From contig OX638340.1 of the NCBI GenBank assembly GCA_951812955.1, positions 3,488,001 to 3,552,000 of the forward strand: a stretch of DNA of 64,000 nt, in the 5' to 3' direction. The stretch comes from an uncultured Gemmatimonadota bacterium (GTDB taxonomy: Bacteria; JAAXHH01). The stretch's first letter is position 1. Each line of letters begins with the position of its first letter. Below are positions 9,770-51,502 of the stretch, piece by piece. The notes under the pieces are model-generated. The model saw only the letters and a program-made list of their open reading frames with translations, made no database searches and was not told where the DNA came from. A program made the position numbers and the translations under genes.

Positions 9770-9798
9770 ATACCGTGTAAGAGATTCCCGGGAGTAAC

Positions 9799-31909: not shown

Positions 31910-32524
31910 ATGATCGGAAAACTACGCCATGTCGTTTCGCAGTTGATGATGACCTCCATGCCGATACGTATGATCTCCGTGCCACTGCTGCTAACCGGGT
32001 TTATGATGTGGTCGGTTGTTGGCTGCGCGGAGACTGCGCAGGACGCATCGTCGGATCCGCAGGAGGCTCCTCAGCCGCCCGCGATGTCCGCGGTGCCGGA
32101 TGTGCCTGAGGCGGCATCGCCACCGGCCATGCCTTCGCACGAGCCGGTCTACCTCACCTCGGAGGCCACGGAGAGCATGAACCTGCCCTTTTCGGATGCC
32201 GTGCGCACGGGGCACCTGCTGTTCCTCTCCGGCCAGATCGGAATGGTACCCGAAACGAAGGAACTGGCGCCGGGGGGCATACAGGCAGAGGCCCGTCAGA
32301 CCATGGAAAACATAAAGACGGTGCTCGAGGCCAACGGATCCTCCATGGACCGGGTGATCAAGGCGACGGTCATGCTCGCGGACATCTCCGAGTGGCCGGC
32401 ATTCAACGAGGTGTACGTCACGTACTTTCCCGGCCACAAGCCGGCCCGCAGCGCCTTCGCCGGCAGCGGACTGGCCTTCGGCGCGCGGTGCGAAGTCGAG
32501 GTGATCGCCACGGTGGGAGAGTAG
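31910..32524 (+). CDS. RidA/YjgF-family protein with an N-terminal export (lipoprotein-like) signal
   Basis: ATG at 31910 after GGAG. ISVPLLLTGFMMWSVVGCAE is lipobox-like. The core DAVRTGHLLFLSGQIG...GGIQAEARQTMENIKTVLEANGSSMDRVIKATVMLADI...FNEVY..YF....PARSAF is classic RidA. In-frame starts at 31805 and 31871 are also possible. Confidence 0.8.
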   Translation: MIGKLRHVVSQLMMTSMPIRMISVPLLLTGFMMWSVVGCAETAQDASSDPQEAPQPPAMSAVPDVPEAASPPAMPSHEPVYLTSEATESMNLPFSDAVRTGHLLFLSGQIGMVPETKELAPGGIQAEARQTMENIKTVLEANGSSMDRVIKATVMLADISEWPAFNEVYVTYFPGHKPARSAFAGSGLAFGARCEVEVIATVGE

Positions 32525-32525
32525 G

Positions 32526-32555
32526 AAAGATCAATAGCCATGGCCAAAGGAAAGT
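32526..32555 (+). repeat. Left copy of a perfect 30-bp direct repeat
   Basis: aaagatcaatagccatggccaaaggaaagt, identical to 32941-32970. It contains an orphan copy of the ykgJ-like start (ATGGCCAAAGGAAAG) that reads into a 15-codon ORF. Confidence 0.95.
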
Positions 32556-32715
32556 GTGGATGTTTGCCACCTCTCTGTGATTATTGATTCAGTTAAATGA
32601 TCGTTGAGTGATTCGAGAAAACCACCAATGCGCCGACTAATCATAAACACACATCACTCGTTTCCGGATGGCAATTGGCTAAGCCATATCCAATCTCATC
32701 ACCGGGCTCGGCGAA

Positions 32716-32952
32716 TTGGAACTGATCGAATTCCTATCATCGTTTTTAAATATCGTGAAAGATGCCGTTCAGGCTGGAAAGGCGGTGTATGATATGTCAA
32801 AATCAGGAAAGAAATCCGCACCCAACGAATCGGAACTCGACCGGGAATACAAGTCACTGATGGACGACCATAGGCGGGTACTGCGCAAGATCGAACGCAT
32901 CGTCGACGCGAAGGCGAAAGAGCAAGGTATCTCTTTCAATAAAGATCAATAG
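32716..32952 (+). CDS. Small ORF (78 aa from TTG, or 52 aa from an internal ATG) inside the low-GC insertion. May be non-coding relic sequence
   Basis: Open frame only, with no convincing SD. The N-terminal part (LELIEFLSSFLNIVKD) could be a decayed IS1595-like transposase tail. Confidence 0.25.
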   Translation: MELIEFLSSFLNIVKDAVQAGKAVYDMSKSGKKSAPNESELDREYKSLMDDHRRVLRKIERIVDAKAKEQGISFNKDQ

Positions 32953-32970
32953 CCATGGCCAAAGGAAAGT
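32941..32970 (+). repeat. Right copy of the perfect 30-bp direct repeat
   Basis: aaagatcaatagccatggccaaaggaaagt. It contains the functional start of 32955-33419. Confidence 0.95.
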
Positions 32971-33419
32971 ACTGGCACGACGGATTGCAGTTCTCCTGTC
33001 AGGGATGCGGCCACTGCTGCACCTTCCCGGGTGGATTCGTATACGGCAGCGAGAAGGAGTTCCGGCGCATTGCCGAGTACCTGGACCTGCCGTTCGAGAC
33101 CTTCCTGGAACGGTACACGGAAGAAATCGACGGCCATGTCTCCCTGGTGTCCCCGGATAACGGTCCCTGCGTCTTCTATGACGGGGAATGTACCATCTAT
33201 CCGGTGCGTCCGTCCCAGTGCAGCAGCTATCCCTTCTGGCAGGATATCCTGAAGTCGAAACGCCGGTGGGAACGGGAAGCGGAGACGTGCAGGGGCATGG
33301 AAAAGGGGAAGCGCTGGACGCGCAAGGAGATCGAGGTGGAAGCGGCAAGCCGGACGGAGAACCTGATGGCGGCGAAGAAGCGGCCGCAGTCCGAACCGAG
33401 GGAGGACGTACATGGATGA
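32955..33419 (+). CDS. YkgJ-family cysteine-cluster protein (CxxCxxCC)
   Basis: FSCQGCGHCCTFPGG ... GPCVFYDGECTIYPVRPSQCSSYPFW fits the family pattern. Confidence 0.8.
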   Translation: MAKGKYWHDGLQFSCQGCGHCCTFPGGFVYGSEKEFRRIAEYLDLPFETFLERYTEEIDGHVSLVSPDNGPCVFYDGECTIYPVRPSQCSSYPFWQDILKSKRRWEREAETCRGMEKGKRWTRKEIEVEAASRTENLMAAKKRPQSEPREDVHG

Positions 33420-34791
33420 GCGCATCACGGTTGGAAATGATCGCATCGACACGGTCGAAAATGATCGATTCGACGAAGAAACCGGTTCACGGCGGTTTAA
33501 TCGGCGTGGCTTTCTGAAGATCGGCGCCCTGGCCGGGGTCGCGGGCGTGGCTGCTGCGAATTGTAGCGGCCTGGACGGGTCAGGGAGTGATGCGGGAGGT
33601 GATGAAAGCGCCGCGACCGGCGTTTCTTCGGACCCGGAAGCCGTGGCGGCCGATTTGCAGCAAAATGTCTATACACGAATGCTCGGCGTACGGCCCCACA
33701 TCGGCGCGCACTCGCACCTGTCCAGCATGGGAGGTTCCCGCATGCCGCCGGAAGTCATGGAGGCGATGACCGAGGCCAACCGTTTCTTTGTGGATATGGA
33801 AGACCTGCACGTAGCCGCCGGGCGCCGTCTCGCGGAAATCGCGGGCGCCGAGGATGCCCTCGTATCATCCGGCGCCTTCGCCGCGTTGCTTGTAGGCGCG
33901 GCCGGGGTCCTTACCGGGACCGACGAGGAACGCATGGCGGTCCTGCCCCGTCCGACCTGGCCGAAGGTCGAATGCCTTTTTCAAACGCCGCACCGGTTTT
34001 TCTACGACAAGGTCTTTCAATACGCGGGCATGACCCTGGTGGAAGCAGATACCAGGCAGGCGTACGAAGAGGCCATCACGGACCGAACGGCCCTGCTCGT
34101 GGGACTGTCCTTCATCGAGCATCAGAACACGGGGCGGCCGCCGTTTCCCGCGAAGTACCGCCAGCCCACGCCGCCGGAAACGCTCATGCCGGAGGAGATC
34201 ATCGAAATCGGAAAGCGGAAGGGCGTGCCGGTCATGATCGACATGGCTTCCGACGTGCGTCCCATCAGAAACCTGAAGCGCTATATCGAGATGGGGGCCG
34301 ACCTGGTCATCGTCAGCGGCGGCAAGGCGTTGCGGGGCCCCAATTCGTCGGGCATACTGGCAGGCCGCGGAGATCTGATCGAAGCCGCGCGGATGCAGAA
34401 TGCGCCGAACAACGGCATCGGGCGGGGACTCAAGGTCGGCAAGGAGGAGATCATCGGTCTCATCGCCGCGGTGGAGCGGTTCGTCGAGATCGACGAAGAC
34501 GCAATGATCGCAGGTTGGAACCAGAAGGCCCAGTGGCTGGCGGACCAGCTCCAGGATATCTCCGGACTCGAAGCCAGTTACGAGATCAATACGGCCGGGT
34601 ATGCCGACGTGGAACTGATCTGGGACCAGGAGGTCATTCCCCTTTCCCGGGAAGACGTCGACAGCGCGCTTAAGGATGGGACTCCGAGCATCATCTACTA
34701 CGGGGAAGGTATCTGCACCAAGCAGTTCGAAGACGGCGAGGAGGTCCTCGTCGCCAATCGCCTACGGGAACTCTTTACGCAGGGTAGCTGA
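33412..34791 (+). CDS. Tat-exported PLP-dependent enzyme, SelA-like/aminotransferase fold
   Basis: Twin-arginine motif SRRFNRRGFLKIGALAGVAGVAA. VSGGKALRGPNSSGILAGR is similar to the SelA-type lysine region. GAGGGAGG SD, and the start overlaps the previous stop (ATGGATGA). Confidence 0.55.
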   Translation: MDERITVGNDRIDTVENDRFDEETGSRRFNRRGFLKIGALAGVAGVAAANCSGLDGSGSDAGGDESAATGVSSDPEAVAADLQQNVYTRMLGVRPHIGAHSHLSSMGGSRMPPEVMEAMTEANRFFVDMEDLHVAAGRRLAEIAGAEDALVSSGAFAALLVGAAGVLTGTDEERMAVLPRPTWPKVECLFQTPHRFFYDKVFQYAGMTLVEADTRQAYEEAITDRTALLVGLSFIEHQNTGRPPFPAKYRQPTPPETLMPEEIIEIGKRKGVPVMIDMASDVRPIRNLKRYIEMGADLVIVSGGKALRGPNSSGILAGRGDLIEAARMQNAPNNGIGRGLKVGKEEIIGLIAAVERFVEIDEDAMIAGWNQKAQWLADQLQDISGLEASYEINTAGYADVELIWDQEVIPLSREDVDSALKDGTPSIIYYGEGICTKQFEDGEEVLVANRLRELFTQGS

Positions 34792-36433: not shown

Positions 36434-36643
36434 TTGTTTACAATATAATCATATTTAATTCTTATAATTTCACATTTAAGCCACGAGTTATTGATCTTAG
36501 ATTTGATAAGTTAAGACTCCAGCGTTAGTATTATGTTGAAAAATCCAGTTTGATTCACATATTGAATTTATCAATCTCTGAAACAACTGACCCGTTCGTT
36601 TGTGAATACAGGGGCAGCATTTTCTTCCAAAGAATGTACCTCG

Positions 36644-38980
36644 ATGACTTTCGAGTTCCGACTTACGTCACGGCGTTTGGGACGCTTCCTCGTCCTGCTG
36701 CTCGCCTGCCTTGCCCTTCCTTTGCTCGTCACGTGCGGCAGGGACACTCCCACGCAGTCACGGACCGCGGTCCCGGCGCGGGTAGTGGTCACGCCTGTGG
36801 CCACGGATCTGGCATCGGCAGGACAGACTGTGCGACTCAACGCCCGGGCGCTTGACGACGCCGGCCAAGAAGTCTCGGAGGCTCCTGTTGCCTGGCGCAG
36901 CACCGACGCGTCGGTGGCGCGCGTGAGCGCGGACGGCGTGGTCACCGCCGTGGGGGAAGGCAGCGCCCTCATAACGGCCATGGCCGGCCAGAAGACGGCT
37001 CAAGCGAAGGTGACGGTGGCGGACCCGGTGCGCGCGGCGCTGCGGGCGCTGTACGAGGCGACGGGCGGGGCGAACTGGAAGAACAGCGACAACTGGCTGA
37101 GCGCCCGGCCCGTTGGCGATTGGTACGGGGTAATCGGCGAGCCATCCGGACCGAGCGGGATTTCGCAACGGAGAACCAGCGCCGGCGGACTGACGCGCCT
37201 GGACCTGTCCGGCAACGGATTGACGGGCGAGATCCCTCCCGTGCTGGGCAGCCTGGCCGGTCTTCGTTATCTGGACCTTTCCGACAACGCGCTGTCCGGC
37301 GCGATCCCTCCTGCGCTGGGCAACCTGTCGTCCCTCGAGACGCTGAAGCTGCACGATAACCGGTTGTCGGGCGAGATCCCTTCGGAACTGGGCAACCTGG
37401 AAAGTCTCCGGGAGCTGTCTCTGCACGGCAACGGGCAACTGACCGGTGCGTTGCCCCTTTCGCTCGCCAACCTGGACCGTCTGGAAACGTTATCCCTTTC
37501 GGGTACGCAGTTGTGCGCGCCGACCGATGCCGCGTTTCAGAACTGGCTGCAAGGAATCGCGAACAGGACCGGCATCTTCAATTGCGGCAACGATACGGAC
37601 GGCGACCGGAACGTGCTGCTCGCCCTGTACAACGCGACGGACGGTCCCAACTGGACGACCCGTACGAACTGGCTGAGCACCCGTCCCCTGTCGTCCTGGC
37701 ACGGGGTGGGCGTGAACGCCGCAGGGCGCGTCGACAGCCTGATCCTCGAAGACAACGCGCTGGCCGGACCGATCCCCGCCAGCCTGGGCAGTCTCGCCGG
37801 CCTCGTGGCGCTGGACGCGAGTGGCAACCAGTTGTCCGGCAGCATCCCGGAGGAGCTGGGCGATCTCTCCGGTCTGGTTACGCTTGATCTCAGCAACAAC
37901 GCGTTGACCGGACCGATCCCGCCGGCGTTGTTCAGCCTGCCCAATCTCGTTACGCTGGAGCTCTCCGGCAATCGGTTTACGGATATCCCGGATACAGACA
38001 TCCCGGATACAGGCACCCCGGTCCTGACGGATCGGGATGTGCTGGTTGCGCTCTACAACGCCACGGACGGCGAGAACTGGACGAACAACACCAACTGGCT
38101 GAGCGACAGGCCGCTAGGGGAATGGCACGGGGTTCGCGTCAATGCGGAGGGGCGCGTCGAAGGACTGGACCTTAGCGCTAACCAGCTATCGGGCCCGATC
38201 CCGACCGAACTCGCAAGCCTCACCAAGTTGACACATCTGTATCTTTACGATAACCAGCTATCGGGCCCGATCCCGGCAGAAATCGCAAGCCTCACCAATT
38301 TGACAGAGCTGGACCTTAGCGAGAACCAGCTATCTGGCCCGATCCCGTCCGAACTCGGCAGCCTCACCAAGTTGGAAGATCTGTGGCTTTTCGGTAATCA
38401 GCTATCGGGTCCCCTGCCCGGAACGTTCACCGGTCTGACAAACTTGGAAAGACTGTCCATCGAAGGAACCGGGTTGTGCGCGCCGACGGACGCGGCCTTC
38501 CAGGCGTGGTTGAGGGGAGTCGATGACAAATCTGGAGTGGTCAACTGTGCCGGCTCAAGCCCAGACCTGATCGTCGCATCGCCATCGGTAAGCGACGACA
38601 CCCTGACGACGGGGCAGTCTTTCACGCTGAGCGCGTCGGTGCGCAACCAGGGCACGGGGCGGTCAGCCTCGACGATCCTGCGCTATTACCGGTCTTCGAA
38701 TTCGACCATCTCATCGTCCGATACGCAGGTCGGCACGGACGCCGTGAGCGCACTGGCCGCATCGGGAACGAGCGCTGAATCGATCAGCCTGTCCGCGCCT
38801 TCGAGCGTCGGGACGTACTACTACGGCGCGTGCGTGGACGAGGTAAGCGGCGAGAGCGATACGGGCAACAACTGCTCTACGGGCGTGCGCGTCACGGTGA
38901 TGGTCGAGGATGACCACGGCGATACTCGGTCTGGAGCGACATCCCCTCGCGCTGAGCGGTTCGGTCTCGGGACGGATTGA
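36644..38980 (+). CDS. Lipoprotein: Big_2, three LRR modules and one CARDB domain. Reading frame broken by a 1-nt frameshift near 38943-38946
   Basis: The ATG at 36644 aligns with the start of paralog 2537. Lipobox LPLLVTCGRDTPTQS. About 65-70% aa identity by eye to 2537-9769 over the first ~200 aa. CARDB-like stretch PDLIVASPSVSDDTLTTGQSFTLSASVRNQG...GTYYYGACVDEVSGESDTGNNCS. The tail after DDHGDTRSGATS is out of frame. Confidence 0.85.
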   Translation: MTFEFRLTSRRLGRFLVLLLACLALPLLVTCGRDTPTQSRTAVPARVVVTPVATDLASAGQTVRLNARALDDAGQEVSEAPVAWRSTDASVARVSADGVVTAVGEGSALITAMAGQKTAQAKVTVADPVRAALRALYEATGGANWKNSDNWLSARPVGDWYGVIGEPSGPSGISQRRTSAGGLTRLDLSGNGLTGEIPPVLGSLAGLRYLDLSDNALSGAIPPALGNLSSLETLKLHDNRLSGEIPSELGNLESLRELSLHGNGQLTGALPLSLANLDRLETLSLSGTQLCAPTDAAFQNWLQGIANRTGIFNCGNDTDGDRNVLLALYNATDGPNWTTRTNWLSTRPLSSWHGVGVNAAGRVDSLILEDNALAGPIPASLGSLAGLVALDASGNQLSGSIPEELGDLSGLVTLDLSNNALTGPIPPALFSLPNLVTLELSGNRFTDIPDTDIPDTGTPVLTDRDVLVALYNATDGENWTNNTNWLSDRPLGEWHGVRVNAEGRVEGLDLSANQLSGPIPTELASLTKLTHLYLYDNQLSGPIPAEIASLTNLTELDLSENQLSGPIPSELGSLTKLEDLWLFGNQLSGPLPGTFTGLTNLERLSIEGTGLCAPTDAAFQAWLRGVDDKSGVVNCAGSSPDLIVASPSVSDDTLTTGQSFTLSASVRNQGTGRSASTILRYYRSSNSTISSSDTQVGTDAVSALAASGTSAESISLSAPSSVGTYYYGACVDEVSGESDTGNNCSTGVRVTVMVEDDHGDTRSGATSPRAERFGLGTD

Positions 38981-41082: not shown

Positions 41083-44000
41083 ATGCCAATATCATACAGG
41101 CTGAGTACAATTTTCAATTTTCATTTCTTTTATAGCGTCGTCGCGGTGCTGTCATTCTTCGTACTGGTTACCTGTGGCAAGGACAGTCCGACCCAACCCA
41201 GGCCGCCAAGTCAACCGCCGGTCCAACCACCCACGCCGGTCCAGCCACCTCCTGCTCCGCAACCCTCTCGCATCACCATCACGCCATCCTTGGTGAATCT
41301 CATGGCGATCGGTCAGACGACGCAGCTCACGGCCTCGGTCCTTGATCAGAACGGGCAGCCAGTTCCCGGCGCGGTCGTTGCATGGTCCAGCAGCGATGAG
41401 GATGTCGCCACCGTGAGCGGCCAGGGGTTGGTAACCGCGGTCAGCAACGGTACGGCCACGATCACCGCCATGGCGGGAAGCGTGTCGGCGACCGCCAGCG
41501 TGCGGGTCTCCCAGACCGCTGGCAGCGTCAAGATCGATCCGGACATGGCCACCCTGATGGCCATTGGGGAAACAGCGCAGCTCACGGCCGTGGTACTCGA
41601 CCAGAACGGGCAGCCAGTTCCCGGCGCGGTCGTTGCATGGTCCAGCAGCGATGAGGATGTCGCCACCGTGAGCGGCCAGGGGTTGGTAACCGCGCTCAGC
41701 AACGGTACGGCCACGATCACCGCCATGGCGGGAAGCGTGTCGGATTCTGCTTTGGTCACGGTCCTCGTTCCCAGAACGGACCGGGATGTTCTGATTGCCT
41801 TCTACGAGAGCACTGGTGGTGAGCAATGGACGGTCAGGTCAAACTGGCTTAGCGTACATCCTCTTGAAACGTGGCTTGGCGTGACCGTCAACTCGGAAGG
41901 CCTGGTAACGGAGATCGACTTGCCGAACAACAATTTGCGCGGACCGCTCACGTCCGAGTTAGGTTATCTGGAAGAGCTCGCGACGCTCCGTCTGAACCAT
42001 AACCAGTTAACGGGTCACATTCCTCCGGAACTCGGCCGACTGGCGAAACTGCGTCACCTGGTGTTGTCCAGCAACCAATTGACCGGAGTGATTCCGACGG
42101 GACTCGGTCAATTAACCGGATTAGAGGAACTGTTGCTGTCCTTCAACCGTCTTTCAGGATCCATACCGGGGGAACTGGGTGACCTGAAGGGACTCAAGAG
42201 GCTGTCGCTTTCAGTCAATGAACTGGATGGACCGGTCCCGGCAGAATTGGGACGACTAAAACAACTGACATCGTTGCGGCTGGACCAGAATCGGTTGTCC
42301 GGGTCAATCCCGCTACACCTTGGCGGGATGACGGTTTTGCGGTCAATGGTACTCGCCGACAATCAGTTAACAGGTGCAATACCAGCCCACCTGTCCTCGT
42401 TGGATAATCTCGAAGAACTGGTGCTGGATCACAACAGACTGGAGGGCGGCATACCCTCACAGTTGTACCGACTTGCCAATCTGAAACGGCTTGGACTCGC
42501 CGGCAACCGGTTATCCGGCGGCGTGCCGGCGTTCTTGGGCAGACTCACCAACCTTACGCACCTGCATCTGTTCTCGAATCGCGGTCTTTCCGGTGTCCTG
42601 CCGCGTTCATTCACCGGTCTTCAACTGGAAGAACTGTTGCTTGAAGGCACGCAGCTTTGCGTACCGCCGGATGACGATTACGAGGCATGGTTGGACCAGA
42701 TTCCAGTGAAGACGGTAACGACCTGCTCCAACCTGGAGTCCAGCGTGTTGGCAACGCTGTACAACGCAACGAATGGAATAAACTGGGCGGATAACACGAA
42801 TTGGCTGAGCGACCGGCCATTGGGTACATGGTATGGCGTGACCACGGACGCCGATGGCTACGTGACGGGTATCGATCTTACGAACAACAATCTGAACGGG
42901 TCCGTACCGGGTGAACTGGCTGGCCTTTCGAAGCTCAAATCGCTGAATCTCAGTACCAACGGTTTTTTGAGAGGGCAGTTACCCCGGGAACTCATCAATC
43001 TTGAACTTCGGGAACTGCTGCTGGAAGACACCCGGTTGTGCGCGCCGCCGGACGCCGAATTCCAGGACTGGCTTCAGACCATTCCGGCAAGAAGCGTATC
43101 CACATGTGATGATCTTGATCTCAATTCGCTTAAGGCCCTGTTCGCGCTCTTCAACGACACGAACGGTCCGGGCTGGCATGACCGGACAAACTGGAACAGT
43201 GATGCGCCGCTGGAGGAATGGTACGGCATCACGGTAGACGAGGACGGCAGGATAACCGAACTGAATCTTGCCGGCAACAATCTCAGCGGCTCGCTCCCCG
43301 CTGACCTGGCAGCACTAACGGAACTGGAACGGCTCGATTTCAGCGACAACGAAGGGCTGACGGGCCCGCTACCGCACGAATGGACAGCACTGACCCTCGA
43401 GTATCTGCGGGTGGAAGGAACGCAGTTGTGCGCTCCACCGGATACCGGGTTTCAGGCCTGGTTGAACGAAATCCCCGAGTACGGCATACCGGAATGTACC
43501 GATACCAGGCCGGACTGGGCTGATACCAATCCTGAATGGGATGTCCTCGAACTCTTGTATAATAGTACGAACGGGAAGGACTGGACGAACAATGAGAACT
43601 GGTTAAGCGAAGCGCCCTTGGATCAGTGGTACGGCATAAAGACGGACGAGGAAGGAAGAGTGACTGAACTTAATCTGGAAGACAACAACCTGTCTGGCGA
43701 ACTACCCCCAAGACTGGGAGATCTAATCGGACTCACGTCGCTGGAACTTTCGTTTAATAAACTTTCGGGTTCAATTCCCGCTGAACTCGGACAGTTGACA
43801 GCCCTTGAAACTTTGTTTCTGGACGATAACGCCCTTTCGGGTCCGATACCCGCCGAACTCGGACAATTTTCCGGCCTGCGAAGATTGGATCTGGGCTGGA
43901 ACGATCTCTCTGGCGTGATTCCCGCTGAACTCAGGCAGTTGACGGGCCTTACCTCGCTCGGTCTGCGCTTCAACAACCTTTCGGGCGTGATTCCCGCTTT

Positions 44001-46005
44001 CCTCGGACAGTTGACCGGCCTTGAAACTTTGTATCTGGACGGTAACGCCCTTTCGGGTCCGATACCCGCCGAACTCGGACAGTTGACCGGCCTGCAATGG
44101 TTGCTTTTGGACGACAACAACCTTTCGGGCGTGATTCCTGCTGAACTCGGACAGTTGACCGGCCTGCAATGGTTGCTTTTGGACGACAACAACCTTTCGG
44201 GCGTGATTCCTGCTGAACTCGGACAGTTGACCGGCCTGCGAAGATTGGGGCTGGGCAATAACAATTTTTCGGGGGTGATACCTGCCGAACTCGGACAGTT
44301 GACCGACCTGGGAAGATTGAGGGTGGACAATAACAATCTCTCTGGCTCGATCCCTCGCGAATTAGGTCAGTTGACAAGCCTCAGAACGCTGGATCTTGGC
44401 TCGAATCCCCTTCTGTCAGGCGCGTTGCCCGAATCTATTACGACGCTGCGACTGGAGACGCTTCTACTGGGTAATACGGCACTCTGCATGCCAATGACAA
44501 CCACATTTCGGACCTGGTTGCAGAGTATTCAGAACCACAGGGTGGCTTCTTGTCTCGAGTACACCGGCGCAACCGCGTACATGACGCAGGCCGCACAATC
44601 ACTGGCCCATCCCGTGCCGCTGGTAGCCGGTGAGGCTGCGTTGCTGCGCGTGTTCATAACAGCCGATTCGGACGTAGGAGCGAGCATGCCTCCCGTTCAG
44701 GCAGTCTTCTTCAACGGGAACCAGATCGTCCACTCTGTGGAGATCCCGGAACAGGATACGGCTGTTCCGGAGCGGTTTGAAGAGGGCGCGCTGATGTATT
44801 CAGCAAATGCGGAAGTGCCCGGAACGGTGGTGATGCCTGGTCTGGAGATGGTAATAAATATCGATACGATGGGATCACCAGGCGATGAATCGAACGTAGT
44901 CTTGCGAATACCTGAAACGGGTCGGCAGCCACTGGACGTGAGAACGGTCCCTCCGTTCAATCTGACCCTTGTACCCTTCCTGTGGATGGAAAGCCCCGAT
45001 ATTGGCGTGTTGGCGGAAACGGACGGCTTGACTGCCAACGATGACCTTTTCTGGCAAACGCGCAATCTGCTTCCTATCGCGGATTTCGAGGTAGCAGTAC
45101 GGGAGCCCGTCTGGACTGCGACGGATCCTCTCTATTCATATGAAATATTGCAGGAAACCAAGGCGTTACGGGTGCTGGACGGTTCTGACAGTTACTACAT
45201 GGGCATCCTCCGGGCAGGCGGCGGACAGGCCGAACTGCCCGGTACCTCAAGCGTGTCTGTCCTCGATGCAGAGGTTATCGCACATGAAATCGGGCACAAC
45301 ATCAATCTCTATCATTCCCCGTGTGGTGGCGCTGGTGGACCAGATCCGCTCTACCCCTATGACGACGGCTCGATCGGTTCCTGGGGTTACGATTTCCGTG
45401 ATGGCACCCTCGTCGCTCCCGGGACAGCGGATCTGATGAGTTACTGCAATCCGCAATGGATCAGCGAATATGGGTTCACCCGGGCTATGAATCACCGGGG
45501 CACAGCGCCGCGGCTGATGGCTGCCATCGCCCGATTCAGTTCGAAGGGACTGCTGGTTTGGGGAGGGGTAAATGAGGAAGGTGAATTGGAACTGGAGCCA
45601 AGTTTTGCGGTCAATTCCGGCCCATCAGTCCCCTTGCTGTCCGGACCTTACCGACTCACGGGTCAAGCCGCGGATGGCATCGTTTTATTCTCCGTAGACT
45701 TCGGAATGGCCGAACTGGGAGACGGACCGGGTAATGCCTTTGCTTTCGTACTACCAGTACAACCCGGCCGGGCGGAAAGGCTTTACACCATTACATTGTC
45801 CGGTCCCGAAGGCGTCGCAACCTTAGACAGGGACGGCGATCGCAGCGCTGCGCTGCTGTTGGATCGGGACACGGGAACAGTCCGCGGTATATTGCGTGAC
45901 TGGCTGGATCCTTCAAGCATATCACCCAGCGCACGGCCCACGCTTCCGGAGCCGGGTCTGGAGATCGTCGTAAGCCCCGGCGTTCCCGAACCGGATTCCT
46001 GGTAG
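41083..46005 (+). CDS. Giant lipoprotein (1640 aa): Pro-rich linker, two Big_2 domains, four capped LRR modules, C-terminal metzincin-type protease domain
   Basis: Lipobox FFVLVTCGKDSPTQP. Two near-identical Big_2 units (QLTA.VLDQNGQPVPGAVVAWSSSDEDVATVSGQGLVTA.SNGTATITAMAGSVS). Four N-cap/cap pairs. The C-terminal domain runs from ~44556 with HEIGHNINLYH and DLMSYC. Confidence 0.92.
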   Translation: MPISYRLSTIFNFHFFYSVVAVLSFFVLVTCGKDSPTQPRPPSQPPVQPPTPVQPPPAPQPSRITITPSLVNLMAIGQTTQLTASVLDQNGQPVPGAVVAWSSSDEDVATVSGQGLVTAVSNGTATITAMAGSVSATASVRVSQTAGSVKIDPDMATLMAIGETAQLTAVVLDQNGQPVPGAVVAWSSSDEDVATVSGQGLVTALSNGTATITAMAGSVSDSALVTVLVPRTDRDVLIAFYESTGGEQWTVRSNWLSVHPLETWLGVTVNSEGLVTEIDLPNNNLRGPLTSELGYLEELATLRLNHNQLTGHIPPELGRLAKLRHLVLSSNQLTGVIPTGLGQLTGLEELLLSFNRLSGSIPGELGDLKGLKRLSLSVNELDGPVPAELGRLKQLTSLRLDQNRLSGSIPLHLGGMTVLRSMVLADNQLTGAIPAHLSSLDNLEELVLDHNRLEGGIPSQLYRLANLKRLGLAGNRLSGGVPAFLGRLTNLTHLHLFSNRGLSGVLPRSFTGLQLEELLLEGTQLCVPPDDDYEAWLDQIPVKTVTTCSNLESSVLATLYNATNGINWADNTNWLSDRPLGTWYGVTTDADGYVTGIDLTNNNLNGSVPGELAGLSKLKSLNLSTNGFLRGQLPRELINLELRELLLEDTRLCAPPDAEFQDWLQTIPARSVSTCDDLDLNSLKALFALFNDTNGPGWHDRTNWNSDAPLEEWYGITVDEDGRITELNLAGNNLSGSLPADLAALTELERLDFSDNEGLTGPLPHEWTALTLEYLRVEGTQLCAPPDTGFQAWLNEIPEYGIPECTDTRPDWADTNPEWDVLELLYNSTNGKDWTNNENWLSEAPLDQWYGIKTDEEGRVTELNLEDNNLSGELPPRLGDLIGLTSLELSFNKLSGSIPAELGQLTALETLFLDDNALSGPIPAELGQFSGLRRLDLGWNDLSGVIPAELRQLTGLTSLGLRFNNLSGVIPAFLGQLTGLETLYLDGNALSGPIPAELGQLTGLQWLLLDDNNLSGVIPAELGQLTGLQWLLLDDNNLSGVIPAELGQLTGLRRLGLGNNNFSGVIPAELGQLTDLGRLRVDNNNLSGSIPRELGQLTSLRTLDLGSNPLLSGALPESITTLRLETLLLGNTALCMPMTTTFRTWLQSIQNHRVASCLEYTGATAYMTQAAQSLAHPVPLVAGEAALLRVFITADSDVGASMPPVQAVFFNGNQIVHSVEIPEQDTAVPERFEEGALMYSANAEVPGTVVMPGLEMVINIDTMGSPGDESNVVLRIPETGRQPLDVRTVPPFNLTLVPFLWMESPDIGVLAETDGLTANDDLFWQTRNLLPIADFEVAVREPVWTATDPLYSYEILQETKALRVLDGSDSYYMGILRAGGGQAELPGTSSVSVLDAEVIAHEIGHNINLYHSPCGGAGGPDPLYPYDDGSIGSWGYDFRDGTLVAPGTADLMSYCNPQWISEYGFTRAMNHRGTAPRLMAAIARFSSKGLLVWGGVNEEGELELEPSFAVNSGPSVPLLSGPYRLTGQAADGIVLFSVDFGMAELGDGPGNAFAFVLPVQPGRAERLYTITLSGPEGVATLDRDGDRSAALLLDRDTGTVRGILRDWLDPSSISPSARPTLPEPGLEIVVSPGVPEPDSW
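44071..44238 (+). repeat. Exact 72-nt (one LRR unit) tandem duplication inside the gene
   Basis: Period-72 self-identity without mismatch across this span. It encodes LSGVIPAELGQLTGLQWLLLDDNN twice. Confidence 0.9.
45283..45315 (+). other. Zinc-binding motif HEIGHNINLYH
   Basis: cat gaa atc ggg cac aac atc aat ctc tat cat, in frame with 41083-46005. Confidence 0.8.
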
Positions 46006-46063
46006 GATCGTTCGACGAGGACGGACGACCAGTCTTGTTGAATTCAATTCAGGATAGCGCTCT

Positions 46064-49000
46064 ATGATTCGACATACAAGACTCACATCGATGACGGTCA
46101 TCATGTTGCTGGCGCTGCCGATCCTGGTCAGGTGCGGCAGGGACAGCCCGACTAAGCCACAGCCGCCGACACCTGCGAGGATCACGGTCACGCCGCAGTC
46201 GCCGACCCCGACGGCTGCAGAACAGATTTCAACACGCGATGACTTGGTTAAGGACGAAAGCGGCGCGGAGATCGCCGATGCAGTTTCGGACAGGGCGGCG
46301 CTGATCGCACTGTATAACGCCACGAACGGTCAGCACTGGACGAACAATAGGAACTGGCTGAGCGAGGCGCCTTTAGGGCAATGGCATGGCGTGACGACCG
46401 ACGAGAATGGGCGGGTACAGCGGTTGAAACTGTTTCAAAACAACCTTTATGGACCTGTTCCAGCCGAGTTGGGAAGTTTGGAAAAGCTCGTTCAGATAGA
46501 TTTTGGGGCAAACAGGCTAAATGGCGTCATACCACCCGAACTGGGAAGTTTAAGCAAACTTGGAGATCTGGGGCTGGGTTATAATAACCTTTCGGGCGCC
46601 ATACCACCCGAACTGGGCAAATTGAGTAACCTTAGTTGGCTGTATCTGGCTGCCAATAACCTTTCGGGCGCCATCCCCGACGAACTGGGCAATCTGGTTA
46701 TAATGCGGTATATGAGTTTTAATAACAACCCCGGCCTGTACGGAACGCTGCCGCTGACTTTCACCAACCTTACTTCTCTGGAATCTCTGTACATAGGTGG
46801 CACGAAGATCTGCGCCCCGCCGACGCCCGAGATGGAGGCGTGGATAGCCACTGTTCCAGATCATGATGTCGCCACCACCTGCGCCGACCTGGATATCGAA
46901 GCGTTGACGGGGTTGTTTAACTCGACTGGCGGGTCGGACTGGACAAACAAAGAGAACTGGCTGAGCGATGCGCCTTTGAGCGACTGGTACGGCATAACGA
47001 CGAATGAAATCGGGCGAGTCAAGGGGCTTAGTCTACCAAATAACAACATGCGCGGGGTGTTGCCTCCGGAGATCGTGGATCTGGCCGCCCTGAGGAATCT
47101 GAACCTGTCTCTCAACGAGGGATTGGCCGGATCATTGCCCTTGAGATTCACCACGCTGAGTCTGGAGTCACTGCGTCTCGAAGGGACGCACGTTTGCGCA
47201 TCCCGGGACGCAAGCTTCCAGGATTGGTTAAATGGCATTCCGAATCGGTCCGTCGCAGACTGTGCCGAACTGGATACGGACGCGCTGGTTGCCCTGATCG
47301 GATTGTACGCGTCCACGGGCGGCAAGAACTGGACGAACAACGAGAACTGGCTGAGCCAGTCTCCCCTGTCCTGGTGGTACGGGGTGACCGTTGATGCCAA
47401 CGGCCGGGTAACTGAGCTGGACTTGTCCGATAACAATCTGAGCGGTGCTCTGCCCGCAAGTATGGGCAAACTGGTGGATTTGAAACTAATCGACCTGGGG
47501 GGCAATACCGGGCTCGTTGGACCACTGCCGGAATCGCTTACCGGGCTTCCAATTGAATCACTTAATCTTGAGGGCACCGGACTGTGCGCGCCTGCCGATT
47601 CAGGCTTCCGGTCCTGGCTAAACGGTATTGGTGGCACGTCCGGTGTCGACGACTGTGCGGAAGATCTTCCGGATTGGCAAGCGCTGGTTACTTTTTACAA
47701 TGAAACAAATGGATCGAACTGGGAGGACAATACCAACTGGCTGAGCGCCGAACCGCTGGATGAATGGTTTGGCGTGTCCACGGACGCTAGCGGACGGGTG
47801 ACTGCTCTGGAGCTTGCCTGGAACAACCTTTTGGGGCCGTTACCTGCCGCCCTGAGTCGTCTGGACAAGCTTGAACGCCTGAATTTAGGAGCAAACGAAC
47901 TGTCCGGCCCTATCCCACCCGATCTGGGCAAGCTGGAAAACCTTCGAGTACTGAATCTGTTCTTTTGTTGGATTTCGGGAACGATACCGCCCGAACTGGG
48001 GAGGTTGACCAATCTTGAAATACTTGATCTCAGTGCGAATGGCAGGACGCTAACCGGCACGCTGCCCGTGGAGCTTGGGAAGCTGGCCAAACTCAAAGTC
48101 CTGGATCTCGGTGGTAACGGTCTGTACGGGCCCATACCGGAAGAGTTGAGCCGTTTGGCGGAGCTCGAGGTCCTGGATCTGCGATGGAACGGTTTTTCTG
48201 GGTCAATTCCCAGAGTATTTGGAAAACTGGCCAATCTCACAGTGTTGCGTCTCAACGGAAACAAGGTGTCGGGCGGGATACCGAGGGAGTTGGGGCTGTT
48301 GTCCGAAATTGAAATTTTGGATATGGGCCGTAATGGCCTGGCGGGGCCGGTACCCGGGGAGTTCGAAAATCTGACCAATCTGAGTGGCTTAAACTTAAGT
48401 AGAAACAATCTGTCCGGCTCGATCCCCGCTGAATTGAGTCATATGAACGCACTGGAGACATTGGATCTTTCATACAATAAACTAACTGCTTCGGTACCTG
48501 GTGGACTGGGTAGGTTGGCCAATTTAAGAGAACTGGTATTGGCCGGAAACACCGGAATGGCCGGACCGTTGCCGGCTGAATTCGTAGAGCTGAATCTCGA
48601 AACGCTCATGTTGGGTGATACCGGGCTCTGCGCGCCACGGGACGCCGAATTTCAGAGCTGGCTTCGTTTCGTTCAGAACAGCCGGGTGACTCCGTGTGCC
48701 GTCCCGGTGGAGGCAACGGCCTACCTGACCCAGGCGAGTCAGTCCCTGGACCATCCCGTCCCCCTGGTCGCGGGCGAAGACGCGCTGTTGCGGGTTTTCC
48801 TGAAGGCCGACGGGGAAACCGACATCCCCATCCCTCCGGTCCGGGCTTCGTTCTATCAAGGCGGCGGGGTTGTCTATATTGCTGATGCACCGGGCGAGGC
48901 TTCGGACGTACCGGCTTCCTTCGAGGAAGAGACACTGACCGCCACGGCCAACGTACGCGTACCGGGTTCTGTAGTGATACCGGGTGTCGAGTTGGTGGTC

Positions 49001-50327: not shown

Positions 50328-50501
50328 TTAAAAAAGCAACGAGATCTGCACGAAGATCTCCGACTAATACATTGTAACGGTCAGGCTTCTTTCTTGCAGA
50401 TGCTGAAGAGGTCTAGAGCGATACCGCCGGCAATACATTATGTAAACGAGTTCGCCGGACGTTTCAATGACCGAGACAAGGAACGACCCTGTGTCAGATA
50501 G
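50328..50501 (+). pseudogene. IS1595-family (ISXO2-like) transposase C-terminal relic
   Basis: Reads ..LRLIHCNGQASFLQMLKRSRAIPPAIHYVNEFAGRFNDRDKERP..*. Compare the family hallmark ..HTN.IE.FW..LKR....Y..EFAGR.N.R. It is short and internally deleted, with no intact ORF or ends. Confidence 0.55.
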
Positions 50502-50576: not shown

Positions 50577-50828
50577 ATGACCGTAATGTCCCGCGAAAAC
50601 TGGGCCTTTGGAGCGCAGATCGTGTCAGCTATTGGCATCCTCGTTATCGCGATTGTCACCTTCAGCGATCAATCCAACAAGGAATTCCGGGATGAGATTC
50701 GGACCGAATTGACCGGGTTGCGCACGGACATGCGATCCGAATTTGCCTTGATTCGTTCCGAAATTCATGATCTGAACACACGCCTCGGTCGGGTCGAAGG
50801 TTACTTTCGCGTGTCTGGTAACGAGTAG
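50577..50828 (+). CDS. Small membrane protein: N-terminal TM helix plus a C-terminal 11-residue-periodic coiled-coil-like tail (paralog 1 of 3)
   Basis: GGAGAGGAG SD. TM AQIVSAIGILVIAIVTF, then FRDEIRTELTGLRTDMRSEFALIRSEIHDLNTRLGRVEGYF. Confidence 0.55.
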   Translation: MTVMSRENWAFGAQIVSAIGILVIAIVTFSDQSNKEFRDEIRTELTGLRTDMRSEFALIRSEIHDLNTRLGRVEGYFRVSGNE

Positions 50829-50953
50829 AGATGATTCCTGCATTCAACGTCTACCGAAGAGCGAGATGAATAGCGATCATTGATGAGTAGCGAAATCTGA
50901 TGAATGGCGAAATCTGATGAAGATCAGTGCGATTAGATACTGAGGAGTCAGTA

Positions 50954-51166
50954 ATGGGTGAAAACGGGATGAGAGATTGGTCGTGGACTCCGATTCTTAC
51001 CATGGCCGGTATGCAGGTTATGATGACCGGTATAATTGTTACAATCATGCTCTACTTAAACAGTGATCTAAGTAATAGGATGCTATCGGTGGAAGAGAAA
51101 TTGAGAGACTTGAATGAAGATGTATCAGGACTGGAGACCAGGCTCGATGAGAGAAAGCAAGAATAG
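50954..51166 (+). CDS. Small membrane protein, TM plus coiled-coil-like tail (paralog 2 of 3)
   Basis: ATG at 50954 after GAGGAG. TM ILTMAGMQVMMTGIIVTIMLYL, then LSNRMLSVEEKLRDLNEDVSGLETRLDERKQE. Confidence 0.5.
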   Translation: MGENGMRDWSWTPILTMAGMQVMMTGIIVTIMLYLNSDLSNRMLSVEEKLRDLNEDVSGLETRLDERKQE

Positions 51167-51208: not shown

Positions 51209-51502
51209 ATGGAAATCGCTCAACTGGTCGTATCGCCGGCTATCTTGCTGGGAGCATTCATCTTCTTCTGGAAGGAATCCAAAGCGGGAAGAATGGAGCT
51301 GGAAACCCGGCTGGTAAAGCGCATGGATCGCATAGAGGACAGGCTGGATGCACGCATCGTCTCCCTGGAGGACAAGATGGATGCGCGCTTTATCGCTCTG
51401 GAGGACAAGATGGATGCGCGTTTTATCTCTCTGGAGGACAAGATGGATACGCGCATTGGCCGGCTGGAAGGGGTGCTCATCACACAACAGAAGGTGTCCT
51501 GA
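51209..51502 (+). CDS. Small membrane protein, TM plus hendecad-repeat tail (paralog 3 of 3)
   Basis: TM LVVSPAILLGAFIFFW. The tail contains a 33-nt tandem repeat encoding LEDKMDARFI(A/S) x3, then RIGRLEGV, which matches the RLGRVEG end of paralog 1. Confidence 0.6.
   Translation: MEIAQLVVSPAILLGAFIFFWKESKAGRMELETRLVKRMDRIEDRLDARIVSLEDKMDARFIALEDKMDARFISLEDKMDTRIGRLEGVLITQQKVS

What the first reader, a model, noticed from the sequence alone, without database searches (positions are those of the whole stretch)
32526..32970. 415-bp low-GC insertion flanked by a perfect 30-bp direct repeat that duplicates a gene start
aaagatcaatagccATGgccaaaggaaagt occurs at 32526-32555 and at 32941-32970. The left copy keeps the ancestral context: it lies directly after the RidA-like stop, preceded by GGAGAGTAGGAAAG, but now opens only a 15-codon ORF (MAKGKCGCLPPLCDY*). 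The right copy starts the real YkgJ-family gene. The intervening DNA is visibly AT-richer. It carries a possible IS1595-like relic core and a doubtful 78-codon ORF. A 30-bp duplication is too long for an ordinary target-site duplication. It looks more like an att-type repeat left by an integrated element that has since been mostly deleted.
Basis: partly seen in the sequence, partly recalled or inferred. Interest (0 to 1): 0.5.

Follow-up and report, generated by a model that had tools for sequence, protein, structure and literature searches.

The report
Repeat bounding a duplicated small-gene cassette
The 30-base repeat is real, but it marks the edge of a small native cassette (a promoter-like motif plus a conserved 78-residue protein gene) that related sponge-symbiont bacteria have duplicated, lost and reshuffled between two housekeeping genes; it is not the scar of a decayed mobile element.

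Summary
Observation confirmed. A perfect 30-bp direct repeat lies at 32526-32555 and 32941-32970. The left copy follows the RidA-like stop and opens a 15-codon ORF. The right copy starts the CxxCxxCC (YkgJ-like) gene. The interior is 46% GC.

Interpretation only partly supported. The interior is not an IS relic or a gutted element. It is a complete 415-bp unit: a promoter-like motif that recurs three times in the window, plus a 78-aa two-helix protein gene under purifying selection (dN/dS 0.24). Homologous units sit at the same ridA-ykgJ spacer in about 20 related sponge-symbiont MAGs, mostly without any repeat.

Close relatives show an allele series: two full units with three repeat copies (L033), a truncated unit plus a full one (L001/L028), one unit with diverged repeats (L032), collapsed single genes (L021/L035) and an empty site (L011). 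The repeat is therefore the boundary of a copy-number-variable tandem array.

The repeat ends at a 7-nt homology (GGAAAGT) that also precedes the unit in repeat-free relatives. This points to a short-homology duplication followed by homologous recombination. No recombinase, terminal inverted repeats, or phage or plasmid matches were found.

How the ridA-adjacent copy arose is unresolved, so a small integrative cassette is not excluded. Interest is modest.

The parts
31910..32524 (+). RidA/L-PSP-like gene (204 aa from the ATG at 31910) with a variable Pro/Glu-rich N-terminal part. Its stop TAG (32522-32524) lies 1 nt before the left repeat.
   Evidence: PF01042, E=1e-29. The ridA-ykgJ order is conserved in every related locus long enough to contain both genes.
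32526..32555 (+). Left copy of the 30-bp repeat: the ykgJ leader (14 nt) plus the first 16 nt of ykgJ. It is the leftmost boundary of the cassette array.
   Evidence: Exact repeat. The equivalent leftmost copies in L033 and L032 have diverged by 3-5 nt. The junction TAGG|AAAGATCAATAGCC is identical to the empty site in L011.
32540..32587 (+). Dead-end 15-codon ORF (MAKGKCGCLPPLCDY*) opened by the duplicated ykgJ start codon.
   Evidence: Translation. Relatives keep the frame, but the differences are mostly nonsynonymous (L032 versus L001: 1 synonymous, 3 nonsynonymous, read). There is no evidence that it is functional.
32549..32562 (+). Duplication join point: GGAAAGT (ykgJ +10..+16) fused to GTGGATG (start of the unit).
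   Evidence: In repeat-free relatives the unit is preceded by GGAA[A/C/T]GT. A profile of those sequences aligns that heptamer to 32549-32555. Only the window clade has GGAAAGT in ykgJ itself; the others have GGCAAGT.
32614..32641 (+). Promoter-like motif CGAGAA-N13-CCGACTAAT inside the unit.
   Evidence: Conserved in all full-length units, including those carrying a different small gene. The degenerate form occurs 3 times in the window against 0.05 expected. Transcription was not measured.
32716..32952 (+). Small gene, 78 aa from TTG (frame open from 32683), predicted to form two helices. Its last four codons and stop (AAAGATCAATAG) lie inside the right repeat. The stop is 2 nt before the ykgJ ATG.
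   Evidence: 17 homologue clusters among 5.8e9 proteins; the nine looked up all lie at or next to this locus. Median dN/dS 0.24 over 77 pairs. AlphaFold2 gives helices 2-30 and 38-69, pLDDT 78. No family above threshold in Pfam, PHROGs or NCBIfam.
32941..32970 (+). Right copy of the 30-bp repeat: the end of the small gene, the leader, and the true start of ykgJ.
32955..33419 (+). YkgJ-like CxxCxxCC zinc/iron-chelating-domain gene (154 aa). It overlaps the start of the next gene (SelA-like/aminotransferase, 33412-34791).
   Evidence: PF03692, E=2.4e-12. ORF list.

Best explanation
The 30-bp repeat is the boundary repeat of a small tandem cassette array native to this clade of sponge-associated bacteria.

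The unit is 415 bp. It holds a short leader region, a promoter-like motif, a 78-aa two-helix protein gene, and then the ykgJ leader plus the first 16 nt of ykgJ.

Inferred origin: the array arose by unequal or illegitimate recombination. GGAAAGT inside ykgJ (+10..+16) was joined to an identical heptamer lying just upstream of the unit. As a result, every unit ends with a copy of the ykgJ translation start.

Shown by comparison: homologous recombination between these boundaries, and between the 80-100% identical unit bodies, has since changed copy number (0, about 1, 2) and unit order among close relatives. It has also kept the boundary copies identical in some strains.

The window carries the one-unit state, with the leftmost boundary stranded next to the ridA stop. 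There it opens a dead-end 15-codon ORF. The real ykgJ start sits 2 nt after the small gene's stop, so it is probably translationally coupled to the small gene (inferred).

Not resolved: how the leftmost boundary came to abut ridA.
For: 1. The interior is resident DNA. Alignment with L004, L006, L017, L007 and L002 shows the same promoter motif and small gene in the same spacer without repeats. The same holds in L021, L022, L035, L061-L065.

2. There is an allele series among relatives whose flanking proteins are 96-99% identical to the window's:
- L033 has three repeat copies bounding two full units of 415 and 436 bp.
- L001 and L028 have a 5'-truncated unit, a repeat, a full unit and a repeat.
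- L032 has one unit with diverged repeats.
- L021, L035 and L036 have a single fused gene and no second repeat.
- L011, a more distant relative, has an empty site.

3. Recombination between units is visible. In L001 the two units are 100/101 identical over their last 101 nt, but only 103/130 identical with a 21-nt indel upstream. Unit order is B-A in L033 and A-B in L001.

4. The array components are old. A-type and B-type units differ by dS of about 0.4. That equals the ykgJ divergence between the window clade and all other cassette-bearing genomes. The leftmost copies in L032 and L033 differ from their right copies by 3 or more nt.

5. The join point lies at a short homology. GGAA[A/C/T]GT precedes the unit in seven repeat-free loci, and the profile aligns it to 32549-32555. 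GGAAAGT occurs in ykgJ only in the clade that has the repeat. Spontaneous bacterial duplications and deletions at short direct repeats are documented (PMC3411829).

6. No mobile-element machinery or signature was found.
Against: A simple tandem duplication predicts that the leftmost boundary is unduplicated sequence. Instead, every array seen has a full copy of the repeat directly after the ridA stop. This needs one more deletion, and no intermediate (ancestral left boundary, then unit, repeat, unit) was found.

The junction TAGG|AAAGATCAATAGCC is identical in the window clade and in the distantly placed empty site L011. Under this model that requires two deletions with the same end points.

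The 7-nt homology could equally be a relic of an old ykgJ fragment.

The A and B units are too diverged to be a recent in-place duplication. They may be alleles of different lineages that were joined by recombination.

Copy-number change within a population was not observed directly, because no reads were available.
Confidence: 0.6

Rival explanations
1. Ancient insertion with a 30-bp target duplication. In this reading ridA and ykgJ were originally tightly linked (TAG-G-AAAGATCAATAGCC-ATG, as in L011). The 385-bp promoter-plus-small-gene module was inserted once at ykgJ +16 by an unknown mechanism that duplicated 30 bp. The left copy is the original junction. Repeat-free relatives later lost or scrambled their left copy. 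Homologous recombination between the two copies then produced arrays and the empty site.
For: - It explains the n units / n+1 copies pattern, and why the leftmost copy always abuts the ridA stop.
- It explains the identical junction in L011 and the window.
- The outgroups L016, L018 and L019 have tight or overlapping ridA-ykgJ junctions.
- The sequence just upstream of the ykgJ ATG (GAYCA(A)TARCC) is kept whatever small gene lies upstream. This suggests it is ykgJ's own leader.
- Repeat-free relatives keep GGAAAGT at the right place.
Against: - Apart from GGAAAGT, the roughly 12 nt after the ridA stop in repeat-free loci show no significant similarity to the ykgJ start or leader. The profile search never hits a true ykgJ start.
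- Those relics read GGA, whereas most ykgJ genes, including the outgroups, read GGC.
- No known bacterial insertion mechanism gives a 30-bp duplication for a 385-bp element that has no recombinase and no terminal repeats.
- The repeat-free boundary type occurs on both sides of the window clade in the trees.
Confidence: 0.2
2. The unit is a tiny non-autonomous integrative cassette. It excises as a circle and re-integrates at the 30-bp site (att-like) through a recombinase encoded elsewhere, and it rebuilds the ykgJ start each time. This would resemble integron cassettes, or elements that target the 5' end of a gene.
For: - Empty site, single, double and permuted arrangements all exist.
- In L013 and L034 a B-type unit with a ykgJ start fragment lies at a second position, upstream of ridA.
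- The cassette type (78-aa, TM-type or none) is patchy among close relatives.
Against: - None of the 20 ORFs of 230 aa or more scanned in the 64-kb window matched a recombinase.
- The 30-mer has an 8-bp palindrome (GCCATGGC), but its 11-nt arms match as inverted repeats at only 3 of 11 positions (by inspection).
- No attC-like hairpin or terminal inverted repeats were found.
- The L013/L034 copy carries 37 nt of ykgJ and is joined to the ridA leader at a different short homology. This points to an independent duplication, not reuse of one site.
- The unit was never found away from this locus. It is absent from the rest of the window, and from viral, phage and plasmid collections. All nine small-protein homologues looked up lie at this locus.
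- Identity between units extends about 100 nt beyond the 30-mer, which fits homologous rather than site-specific exchange.
Confidence: 0.12
3. One reading: att repeats left by a larger integrated element (prophage, island or IS1595-like) whose body has been almost entirely deleted.
For: A long perfect direct repeat, a low-GC interior, and an empty site in one relative.
Against: - The interior has the same length and content in all array-bearing relatives. It consists of a conserved gene under purifying selection and a native promoter-type motif.
- No similarity to transposases, integrases, phages or plasmids.
- The homologous interior is present without repeats in 14 loci.
- No relative carries a larger element at this site. 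The largest spacer is 866 nt and consists of two units.
Confidence: 0.03
4. Assembly artefact: a k-mer-sized (k-1 = 30) false join or a collapsed repeat.
For: 30 nt equals k-1 for k = 31.
Against: - The same structure occurs in hifiasm-style long-read contigs (L030, L033) and in independent short-read assemblies (L001, L028, L032).
- Strain-specific substitutions occur inside the repeats and units.
Confidence: 0.01

Closest known systems
Short-homology tandem duplications in bacteria, followed by recombination-driven expansion and collapse (spontaneous duplications and deletions at short direct repeats in Salmonella, PMC3411829; general duplication-amplification models, from my own knowledge)
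   Same: Head-to-tail units of equal length. A novel join point at a 7-nt direct homology. Copy number differs among close strains. Sequence between copies is homogenised. A truncated gene fragment is left at the join.
   Different: The components are old (dS about 0.4 between the two unit types) rather than transient. The unit is only 415 bp. The leftmost boundary also carries the duplicated segment, which a single duplication does not predict.
[quoted passage not shown]
   Same: The repeated sequence overlaps the 5' end of a conserved gene. After insertion, the gene is still served by a start region adjacent to the inserted DNA.
   Different: SXT is about 100 kb and encodes its own tyrosine recombinase, which acts on attP and attB. 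Here the unit is 415 bp, no recombinase was found, and identity between copies runs well beyond the 30-mer.
Integron gene-cassette arrays
   Same: Small single-gene units in tandem at one chromosomal site. Number and order vary. Each is bounded by a recurring sequence.
   Different: No attC-type imperfect palindrome and no intI or attI. Each unit has its own promoter-like motif. The boundary is a copy of the downstream gene's start.
MITEs and IS-derived miniature elements
   Same: Size of a few hundred bp, AT-richer than the surroundings, flanked by direct repeats.
   Different: No terminal inverted repeats. The 30-bp duplication is far longer than typical target-site duplications. Single locus only. 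Carries a selected protein gene.
Tandem arrays of integrative elements at one att site (for example tandem SGI1 integration, PMC2297512; title and abstract only)
   Same: n elements separated by n+1 copies of the attachment repeat.
   Different: Those arrays are made by an element-encoded integrase. Nothing of that kind was detected here.

Membership tests
IS element / MITE | Terminal inverted repeats at the element ends | tested here: not met
   No inverted repeat pairs the ends at 32556 and 32940.
IS element / MITE | Short target-site duplication (typically 2-15 bp) | tested here: not met
   The duplication is 30 bp.
   No Pfam or NCBIfam hit in any ORF of the insert on either strand.
IS element / MITE | Multiple dispersed copies in the genome | tested here: not met
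   No other copy in the 64-kb window. All small-protein homologues looked up lie at the ridA-ykgJ locus. Whole genomes could not be scanned.
Site-specific integrative element (att-flanked) | Recombinase gene in or next to the element | tested here: not met
   The unit encodes only the 78-aa protein. 20 of the ORFs of 230 aa or more in the window show no integrase, resolvase or transposase domains. The rest of the genome was not available.
Site-specific integrative element (att-flanked) | Identical core repeats flanking the element, and an empty site in relatives | tested here: met
   Perfect 30-mers. Empty site in L011. The same pattern is also expected from homologous recombination between duplication boundaries.
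Site-specific integrative element (att-flanked) | Core site with inverted recombinase-binding arms around a short overlap | tested here: not met
   The central palindrome is GCCATGGC, but the flanking 11-nt arms match as inverted repeats at only 3 of 11 positions (inspection of the sequence).
Site-specific integrative element (att-flanked) | Crossover confined to the core, with the element foreign to the locus | tested here: not met
   Near-identity between adjacent units extends about 100 nt. The unit is orthologous to resident spacer DNA in 14 repeat-free loci.
Integron cassette | attC recombination site (imperfect palindrome) at the cassette end, with intI/attI nearby | tested here: not met
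   No hairpin-forming inverted repeat at the unit ends. No integrase among the ORFs scanned.
Tandem duplication / amplification array | Head-to-tail units of like length sharing one join-point sequence | tested here: met
   L033 has units of 415 and 436 bp, each beginning GTGGATGTTTGCC directly after ...GGAAA(G/A)T. The join is identical in the window, L030, L001, L028 and L032.
Tandem duplication / amplification array | Join point at a short direct homology present in the unduplicated state | tested here: met
   GGAA[A/C/T]GT precedes the unit in L004, L006, L022, L061, L063, L064 (L065 keeps only the first ~10 nt of this boundary). ykgJ +10..+16 reads GGAAAGT in the window clade only.
Tandem duplication / amplification array | Copy-number polymorphism among close relatives | tested here: met
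   0, 1, about 1.5 and 2 units occur in L011, WIN/L030/L032, L001/L028 and L033. Collapsed hybrids occur in L021 and L035.
Tandem duplication / amplification array | The outermost boundary is unduplicated flanking sequence | tested here: not met
   Every array has a full repeat copy directly after the ridA stop. An extra deletion, or a different origin, is needed.

The most novel reading that the evidence does not exclude
The 415-bp unit (promoter, small two-helix protein gene, replacement ykgJ start) could be a minimal integrative gene cassette. It would loop out and re-insert at the translation start of ykgJ, either through a recombinase encoded elsewhere or through host homologous recombination on a 30-100-bp boundary. 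In that case the ridA-ykgJ spacer of these sponge symbionts would act as a dedicated exchange site for small coiled-coil and membrane protein genes that share one promoter type. That would be an integron-like system without attC or intI.
Probability: 0.12. Interest if true: 0.6.

Novelty: new member of a known kind. Interest (0 to 1): 0.3.

Why it matters
The finding shows that a long perfect direct repeat around AT-rich DNA next to a gene start need not be a mobile-element scar. Here it is the join point of a local duplication in a spacer that turns over quickly.

For the organisms, it identifies a hypervariable site between two conserved genes. Uncultured sponge symbionts keep, duplicate, swap and lose tiny coiled-coil or membrane protein genes there. 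These genes sit downstream of a shared, previously undescribed promoter-like motif. Such strain-variable small proteins are candidates for host-, phage- or envelope-related functions, but this is speculation.

The practical value is mainly for annotation. The 78-aa gene is real, the 15-codon ORF is a by-product, and the motif may help to find promoters in this clade.

Tried and rejected
- **Exact-protein look-ups.** Window YkgJ and the 78-aa ORF were not on record.
- **Rfam.** Nothing relevant around the locus at E<=1, and nothing in the whole window at gathering thresholds. No tRNA or tmRNA that could serve as an att target.
- **Promoter/terminator scan.** The sigma-70 and terminator consensus scan found nothing in the unit.
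- **Viral contigs.** The 16-mer GATCAATAGCCATGGC gave 24 hits. All are chance matches (flanks about 25% identical) and none has the small protein.
- **Phage and plasmid collections.** Searching with the whole repeat-unit-repeat gave no match.
- **Is the start of the unit a decayed continuation of ykgJ beyond +16?** Local alignments are not better than shuffles: p = 0.14-1.0 in five lineages.
- **Is the ~12 nt after the ridA stop in repeat-free loci a decayed ykgJ start or leader?** L004 (TAGTGGCTCCGGAA) looks suggestive. However, the profile search finds only the unit's own homologues, never a ykgJ start.
- **Copies of the ridA 3' end or ykgJ start inside spacers.** A systematic search found only the known 16-mers, plus one weak ridA-end match to the small-gene 5' end in L062 (p about 0.007 before correcting for multiple tests). 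An apparent ridA-end copy before ykgJ in L017 did not reach significance.
- **Recent transfer of the unit between the window and L030.** Rejected: identity is equally high in the neighbouring genes.
- **Species tree from concatenated flank proteins.** It turned out to be dominated by a discordant SelA-like gene. I rebuilt the tree on ridA+ykgJ.
- **The second small-gene cluster (50.5-51.5 kb).** It has no gene-start boundary repeats.
- **A 12-nt complement between the promoter motif and the small-gene start.** It is within chance expectation and shows no compensatory change in L022.

Full report
**1.

The 30-mer AAAGATCAATAGCCATGGCCAAAGGAAAGT occurs at 32526-32555 and 32941-32970. The copies are 100% identical and 415 nt apart.

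The left copy begins one base after the TAG stop of a PF01042 RidA/L-PSP protein (31910-32524). The ATG inside the right copy (32955) starts a PF03692 CxxCxxCC, YkgJ-like protein. The ATG of the left copy opens MAKGKCGCLPPLCDY*.

The 385 nt between the copies is 46.5% GC, against 59.1% for the window. Other intergenic stretches of this window are 41-58% GC, so low GC does not mark the insert as foreign.

The structure is not an assembly artefact. The same pair of perfect 30-mers with the same spacing is present in a long-read contig from a related strain (L030, about 95% nucleotide identity over 4.8 kb). It is also present in two further assemblies (L001, L028).

**2. What lies between the copies**

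Nothing in the interior resembles a transposase, an integrase or any IS family, in Pfam or NCBIfam, on either strand. There are no terminal inverted repeats. Rfam finds nothing. Phage, plasmid and viral collections give no match.

The interior has two conserved parts.

- **A promoter-like motif.** It reads CGAGAA-N13-CCGACTAAT (32614-32641). In slightly degenerate form it occurs three times in the window, against 0.05 expected by chance. It also recurs at another orthologous intergenic site in six related genomes.
- **The 78-codon ORF (32716-32952).** It has 17 homologue clusters among 5.8 billion proteins. Its N-terminal (GLGELELIEFLSSFLN..AGKAVYDM) and C-terminal (RVLRKIERIVDAKAKEQGISF) segments are conserved. 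Median dN/dS is 0.24 over 77 pairwise comparisons. AlphaFold2 predicts two helices (2-30 and 38-69, pLDDT 78).

No protein family claims the gene above threshold. Its last four codons and its stop lie inside the right repeat, 2 nt before the ykgJ ATG.

**3. Relatives**

A genome scan with YkgJ returned 20 loci, a metagenome scan returned 9, and protein look-ups returned 13 more. Where the records give an organism name, it is Latescibacterota or 'Gemmatimonadetes', and several isolate names suggest sponge samples. ridA is followed by ykgJ in every locus long enough to show both, but the spacer ranges from an overlap to 866 nt.

- A unit homologous to the window's interior occupies the spacer with no left repeat in L002, L004, L006, L007, L017, L021, L022, L035, L036 and L061-L065.
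- Other genomes hold different small transmembrane/coiled-coil genes behind the same promoter motif. Some of these run into the same ...KDQ* end: L003, L005, L010, L013/L034, L009, L015.
- L008 keeps only a remnant.
- L016, L018 and L019 have tight or overlapping ridA-ykgJ junctions.

**4. The repeat is an array boundary**

The window clade is the set of loci whose flanking proteins are 96-99% identical to the window's. The alleles within it form a series.

| Locus | Arrangement between ridA and ykgJ |
|---|---|
| L033 | repeat - unit B (415 bp) - repeat - unit A (436 bp) - repeat |
| L001, L028 | 5'-truncated A - repeat - full B - repeat |
| L032 | one A unit with diverged repeats |
| Window, L030 | one B unit with perfect repeats |
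| L021, L035, L036 | a single gene; the first 6-7 nt of the leftmost repeat (TAGGGAAGAT) are fused to the small gene's TTG start region |

Every unit begins GTGGATGTTTGCC immediately after ...GGAAA(G/A)T.

Adjacent units recombine. In L001 the two units are 100/101 identical over their last 101 nt, but only 103 of 130 aligned positions match upstream, with a 21-nt indel.

The components are old. A-type units (with a DHRSLVS heptad) and B-type units (without it) differ by dS of about 0.4, as deep as the ykgJ divergence between the window clade and all other cassette-bearing genomes. B-type genes also occur in L062 and L034, and an A-like gene occurs in L022. The leftmost repeat copies in L033 and L032 differ from their right copies by 3 nt (L033) and by several nt (L032) and share GCTAGA, so the left copy is not a recent event. 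The perfect identity seen in the window therefore reflects recent exchange between boundaries, not a young insertion.

**5. The join point**

In repeat-free full-length loci, the unit is preceded by the ridA stop, about 12 variable nucleotides, and then GGAA[A/C/T]GT (L004, L006, L022, L061, L063, L064). A profile built from those sequences aligns that heptamer to 32549-32555, the last 7 nt of the window's left repeat.

Within ykgJ, positions +10..+16 read GGAAAGT only in the window clade. The other ykgJ copies listed read GGCAAGT.

The repeat therefore ends exactly where a 7-nt direct homology would allow an unequal exchange, fusing ykgJ codon 6 to the start of the unit. Short direct repeats of this size are documented join points of spontaneous bacterial duplications and deletions (PMC3411829).

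A second, independent event of the same kind is visible in L013 and L034. There, a B-type unit followed by the leader and 37 nt of ykgJ lies upstream of ridA. It is joined to the ridA leader at a different short homology, GGAC(TGC)AGT.

**6. What does not fit**

A single tandem duplication leaves unduplicated sequence at the outer left boundary. Yet every array has a full repeat copy abutting the ridA stop, and I found no intermediate.

The junction TAGG|AAAGATCAATAGCC is also identical in the window clade and in L011, which pairs with the repeat-free L006 in both trees. Either two deletions hit the same end points, or the ridA-adjacent copy is the original tight ridA-ykgJ junction and the module was once inserted at ykgJ +16 with a 30-bp duplication.

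In favour of that rival: the 10-14 nt before the ykgJ ATG (GAYCA(A)TARCC) are kept whatever gene lies upstream.

Against it:
- The bases after the ridA stop in repeat-free loci show no significant similarity to the ykgJ start or leader beyond the heptamer.
- That heptamer reads GGA where most ykgJ genes, including the outgroups, read GGC.

I therefore put the duplication-plus-recombination account at 0.6, an ancient insertion with target duplication at 0.2, and a recurrently mobile site-specific mini-cassette at 0.12.

**7. Tests against known families**

- **IS/MITE:** fails on terminal inverted repeats, duplication length, transposase and copy number.
- **Att-flanked integrative element:** meets only the repeat and empty-site criteria, which recombination between duplication boundaries also produces. 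It fails on a recombinase (none among 20 large ORFs scanned in the window). It also fails on inverted-arm core architecture, on crossover confined to the core, and on foreign content.
- **Integron cassette:** fails on attC and intI, and each unit carries its own promoter-like motif.
- **Tandem duplication array:** meets four of five criteria and fails on the outer boundary.

**8. Consequences for expression (inferred)**

In tight-junction genomes, ykgJ starts within 0-28 nt of the ridA stop. In the window, that position is occupied by the duplicated start, which leads into a 15-codon dead end. Differences in this short ORF between relatives are mostly nonsynonymous, so there is no sign of selection on it.

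The functional ykgJ start lies 2 nt after the small gene's stop, downstream of the unit's own promoter-like motif. ykgJ is therefore probably co-transcribed with, and translationally coupled to, the small gene.

**9. Verdict**

The feature is real, but it is an ordinary kind of event in an unusual place. It is a copy-number-variable tandem cassette whose boundary repeat contains a gene start, located in a fast-turnover spacer of uncultured sponge-associated bacteria.

The idea that the repeat is a recombination site with an empty counterpart is.

Novelty lies in the uncharacterised small-protein family and the shared promoter-like motif, not in the mechanism. Interest: 0.3.

Noticed in passing
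window 32614-32640, 50340-50367, 60189-60215 (all + strand); also about 3.2 kb downstream of ykgJ in L002, L003, L007, L008, L009, L011: A recurring promoter-like motif, CGAG[AT][AT]-N12-16-C[CT]GACT[AG]A, preceded by an A/T-rich tract. It has 3 matches in the window against 0.05 expected. It may be a clade-specific promoter consensus; its sigma factor is unknown.
   Followed up: partly
window 50577-50828, 50927-51166, 51209-51502 (+): Three consecutive small transmembrane + coiled-coil ORFs (83, 79 and 97 aa) lie about 210 nt downstream of the second copy of the promoter-like motif. The third contains four 33-nt (11-aa, LEDKMDARFI-type) tandem repeats. They resemble in architecture, with weak similarity (30% over 66 aa), the TM-type small genes that fill the ridA-ykgJ spacer in other genomes.
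   Followed up: partly
L013 2360-2560 and L034 2380-2730: A second copy of the small gene (intact in L034, internally deleted in L013), followed by the ykgJ leader and 37 nt of ykgJ, lies upstream of ridA. It is joined to the ridA leader at a short homology, GGAC(TGC)AGT. The ridA-ykgJ spacer in those loci holds two other small genes.
   Followed up: partly
window 33412-34791 and orthologues in the loci: The SelA-like/aminotransferase gene just downstream of ykgJ has a history discordant with ridA and ykgJ. Its dS against L004/L011/L063 is 0.8-0.9, but against L016 it is 0.33. For ridA and ykgJ, dS is 0.25-0.5 against the former group and 1.0-1.6 against L016. This suggests a recombination break or gene replacement between ykgJ and this gene.
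   Followed up: partly
window 31910-32150 (ridA N-terminal part); L021 1600-1900: The RidA-like protein has a hydrophobic N-terminus followed by a Pro/Glu/Ala-rich linker. The linker's length and sequence vary strongly between strains (81-87% identity here against 96-100% in the rest of the locus). In L021 it is expanded by tandem repeats.
   Followed up: no
window 32716-32949: The small gene has GC3 of 0.55, against 0.76-0.81 in ridA, ykgJ and the SelA-like gene. It is nevertheless old and under purifying selection, so its codon usage has not moved towards that of its neighbours.
   Followed up: no
window 32480-32500 versus 32707-32727; L062: The ridA 3' region (GCGAAGTCGAGGTGATCG, encoding EVEVIA) resembles the start of the small gene (GCGAATTGGAACTGATCG, encoding ELELIE) in the same frame. 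The match is 14-15 of 18 nt, with p about 0.007 in one locus before correcting for multiple tests. This could hint that the small gene grew from a duplicated ridA end, or it could be chance.
   Followed up: partly
window 33426-33473: An imperfect 24-nt tandem duplication (83% identity) lies at the very start of the SelA-like gene. It encodes ITVGNDRID/TVENDRFD.
   Followed up: no
window 2537-11454, 20382-22145 (-), 36602-38980; probably also 14815-20364 (-) and 41083-50176: The window is dominated by very large proteins. Those scanned carry leucine-rich-repeat and bacterial Ig-like (Big_2) domains, and 72-nt repeat periodicity is visible in 3-10 kb, 38 kb and 44-46 kb; the 2537-9769, 14815-20364 and 41083-50176 ORFs were not themselves scanned. 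These are eukaryotic-like repeat proteins of the sort often reported in sponge symbionts. No tRNA and no Rfam family occurs in the whole 64 kb.
   Followed up: no
L017 3940-4000: L017 groups with the tight-junction genomes L018 and L019 in the ridA+ykgJ tree, yet it carries a 78-aa-type gene. That gene is followed by 52 extra nt before ykgJ, including CACTGTGGGAGAG, which resembles the ridA 3' end of other species. The match is not statistically significant.
   Followed up: partly
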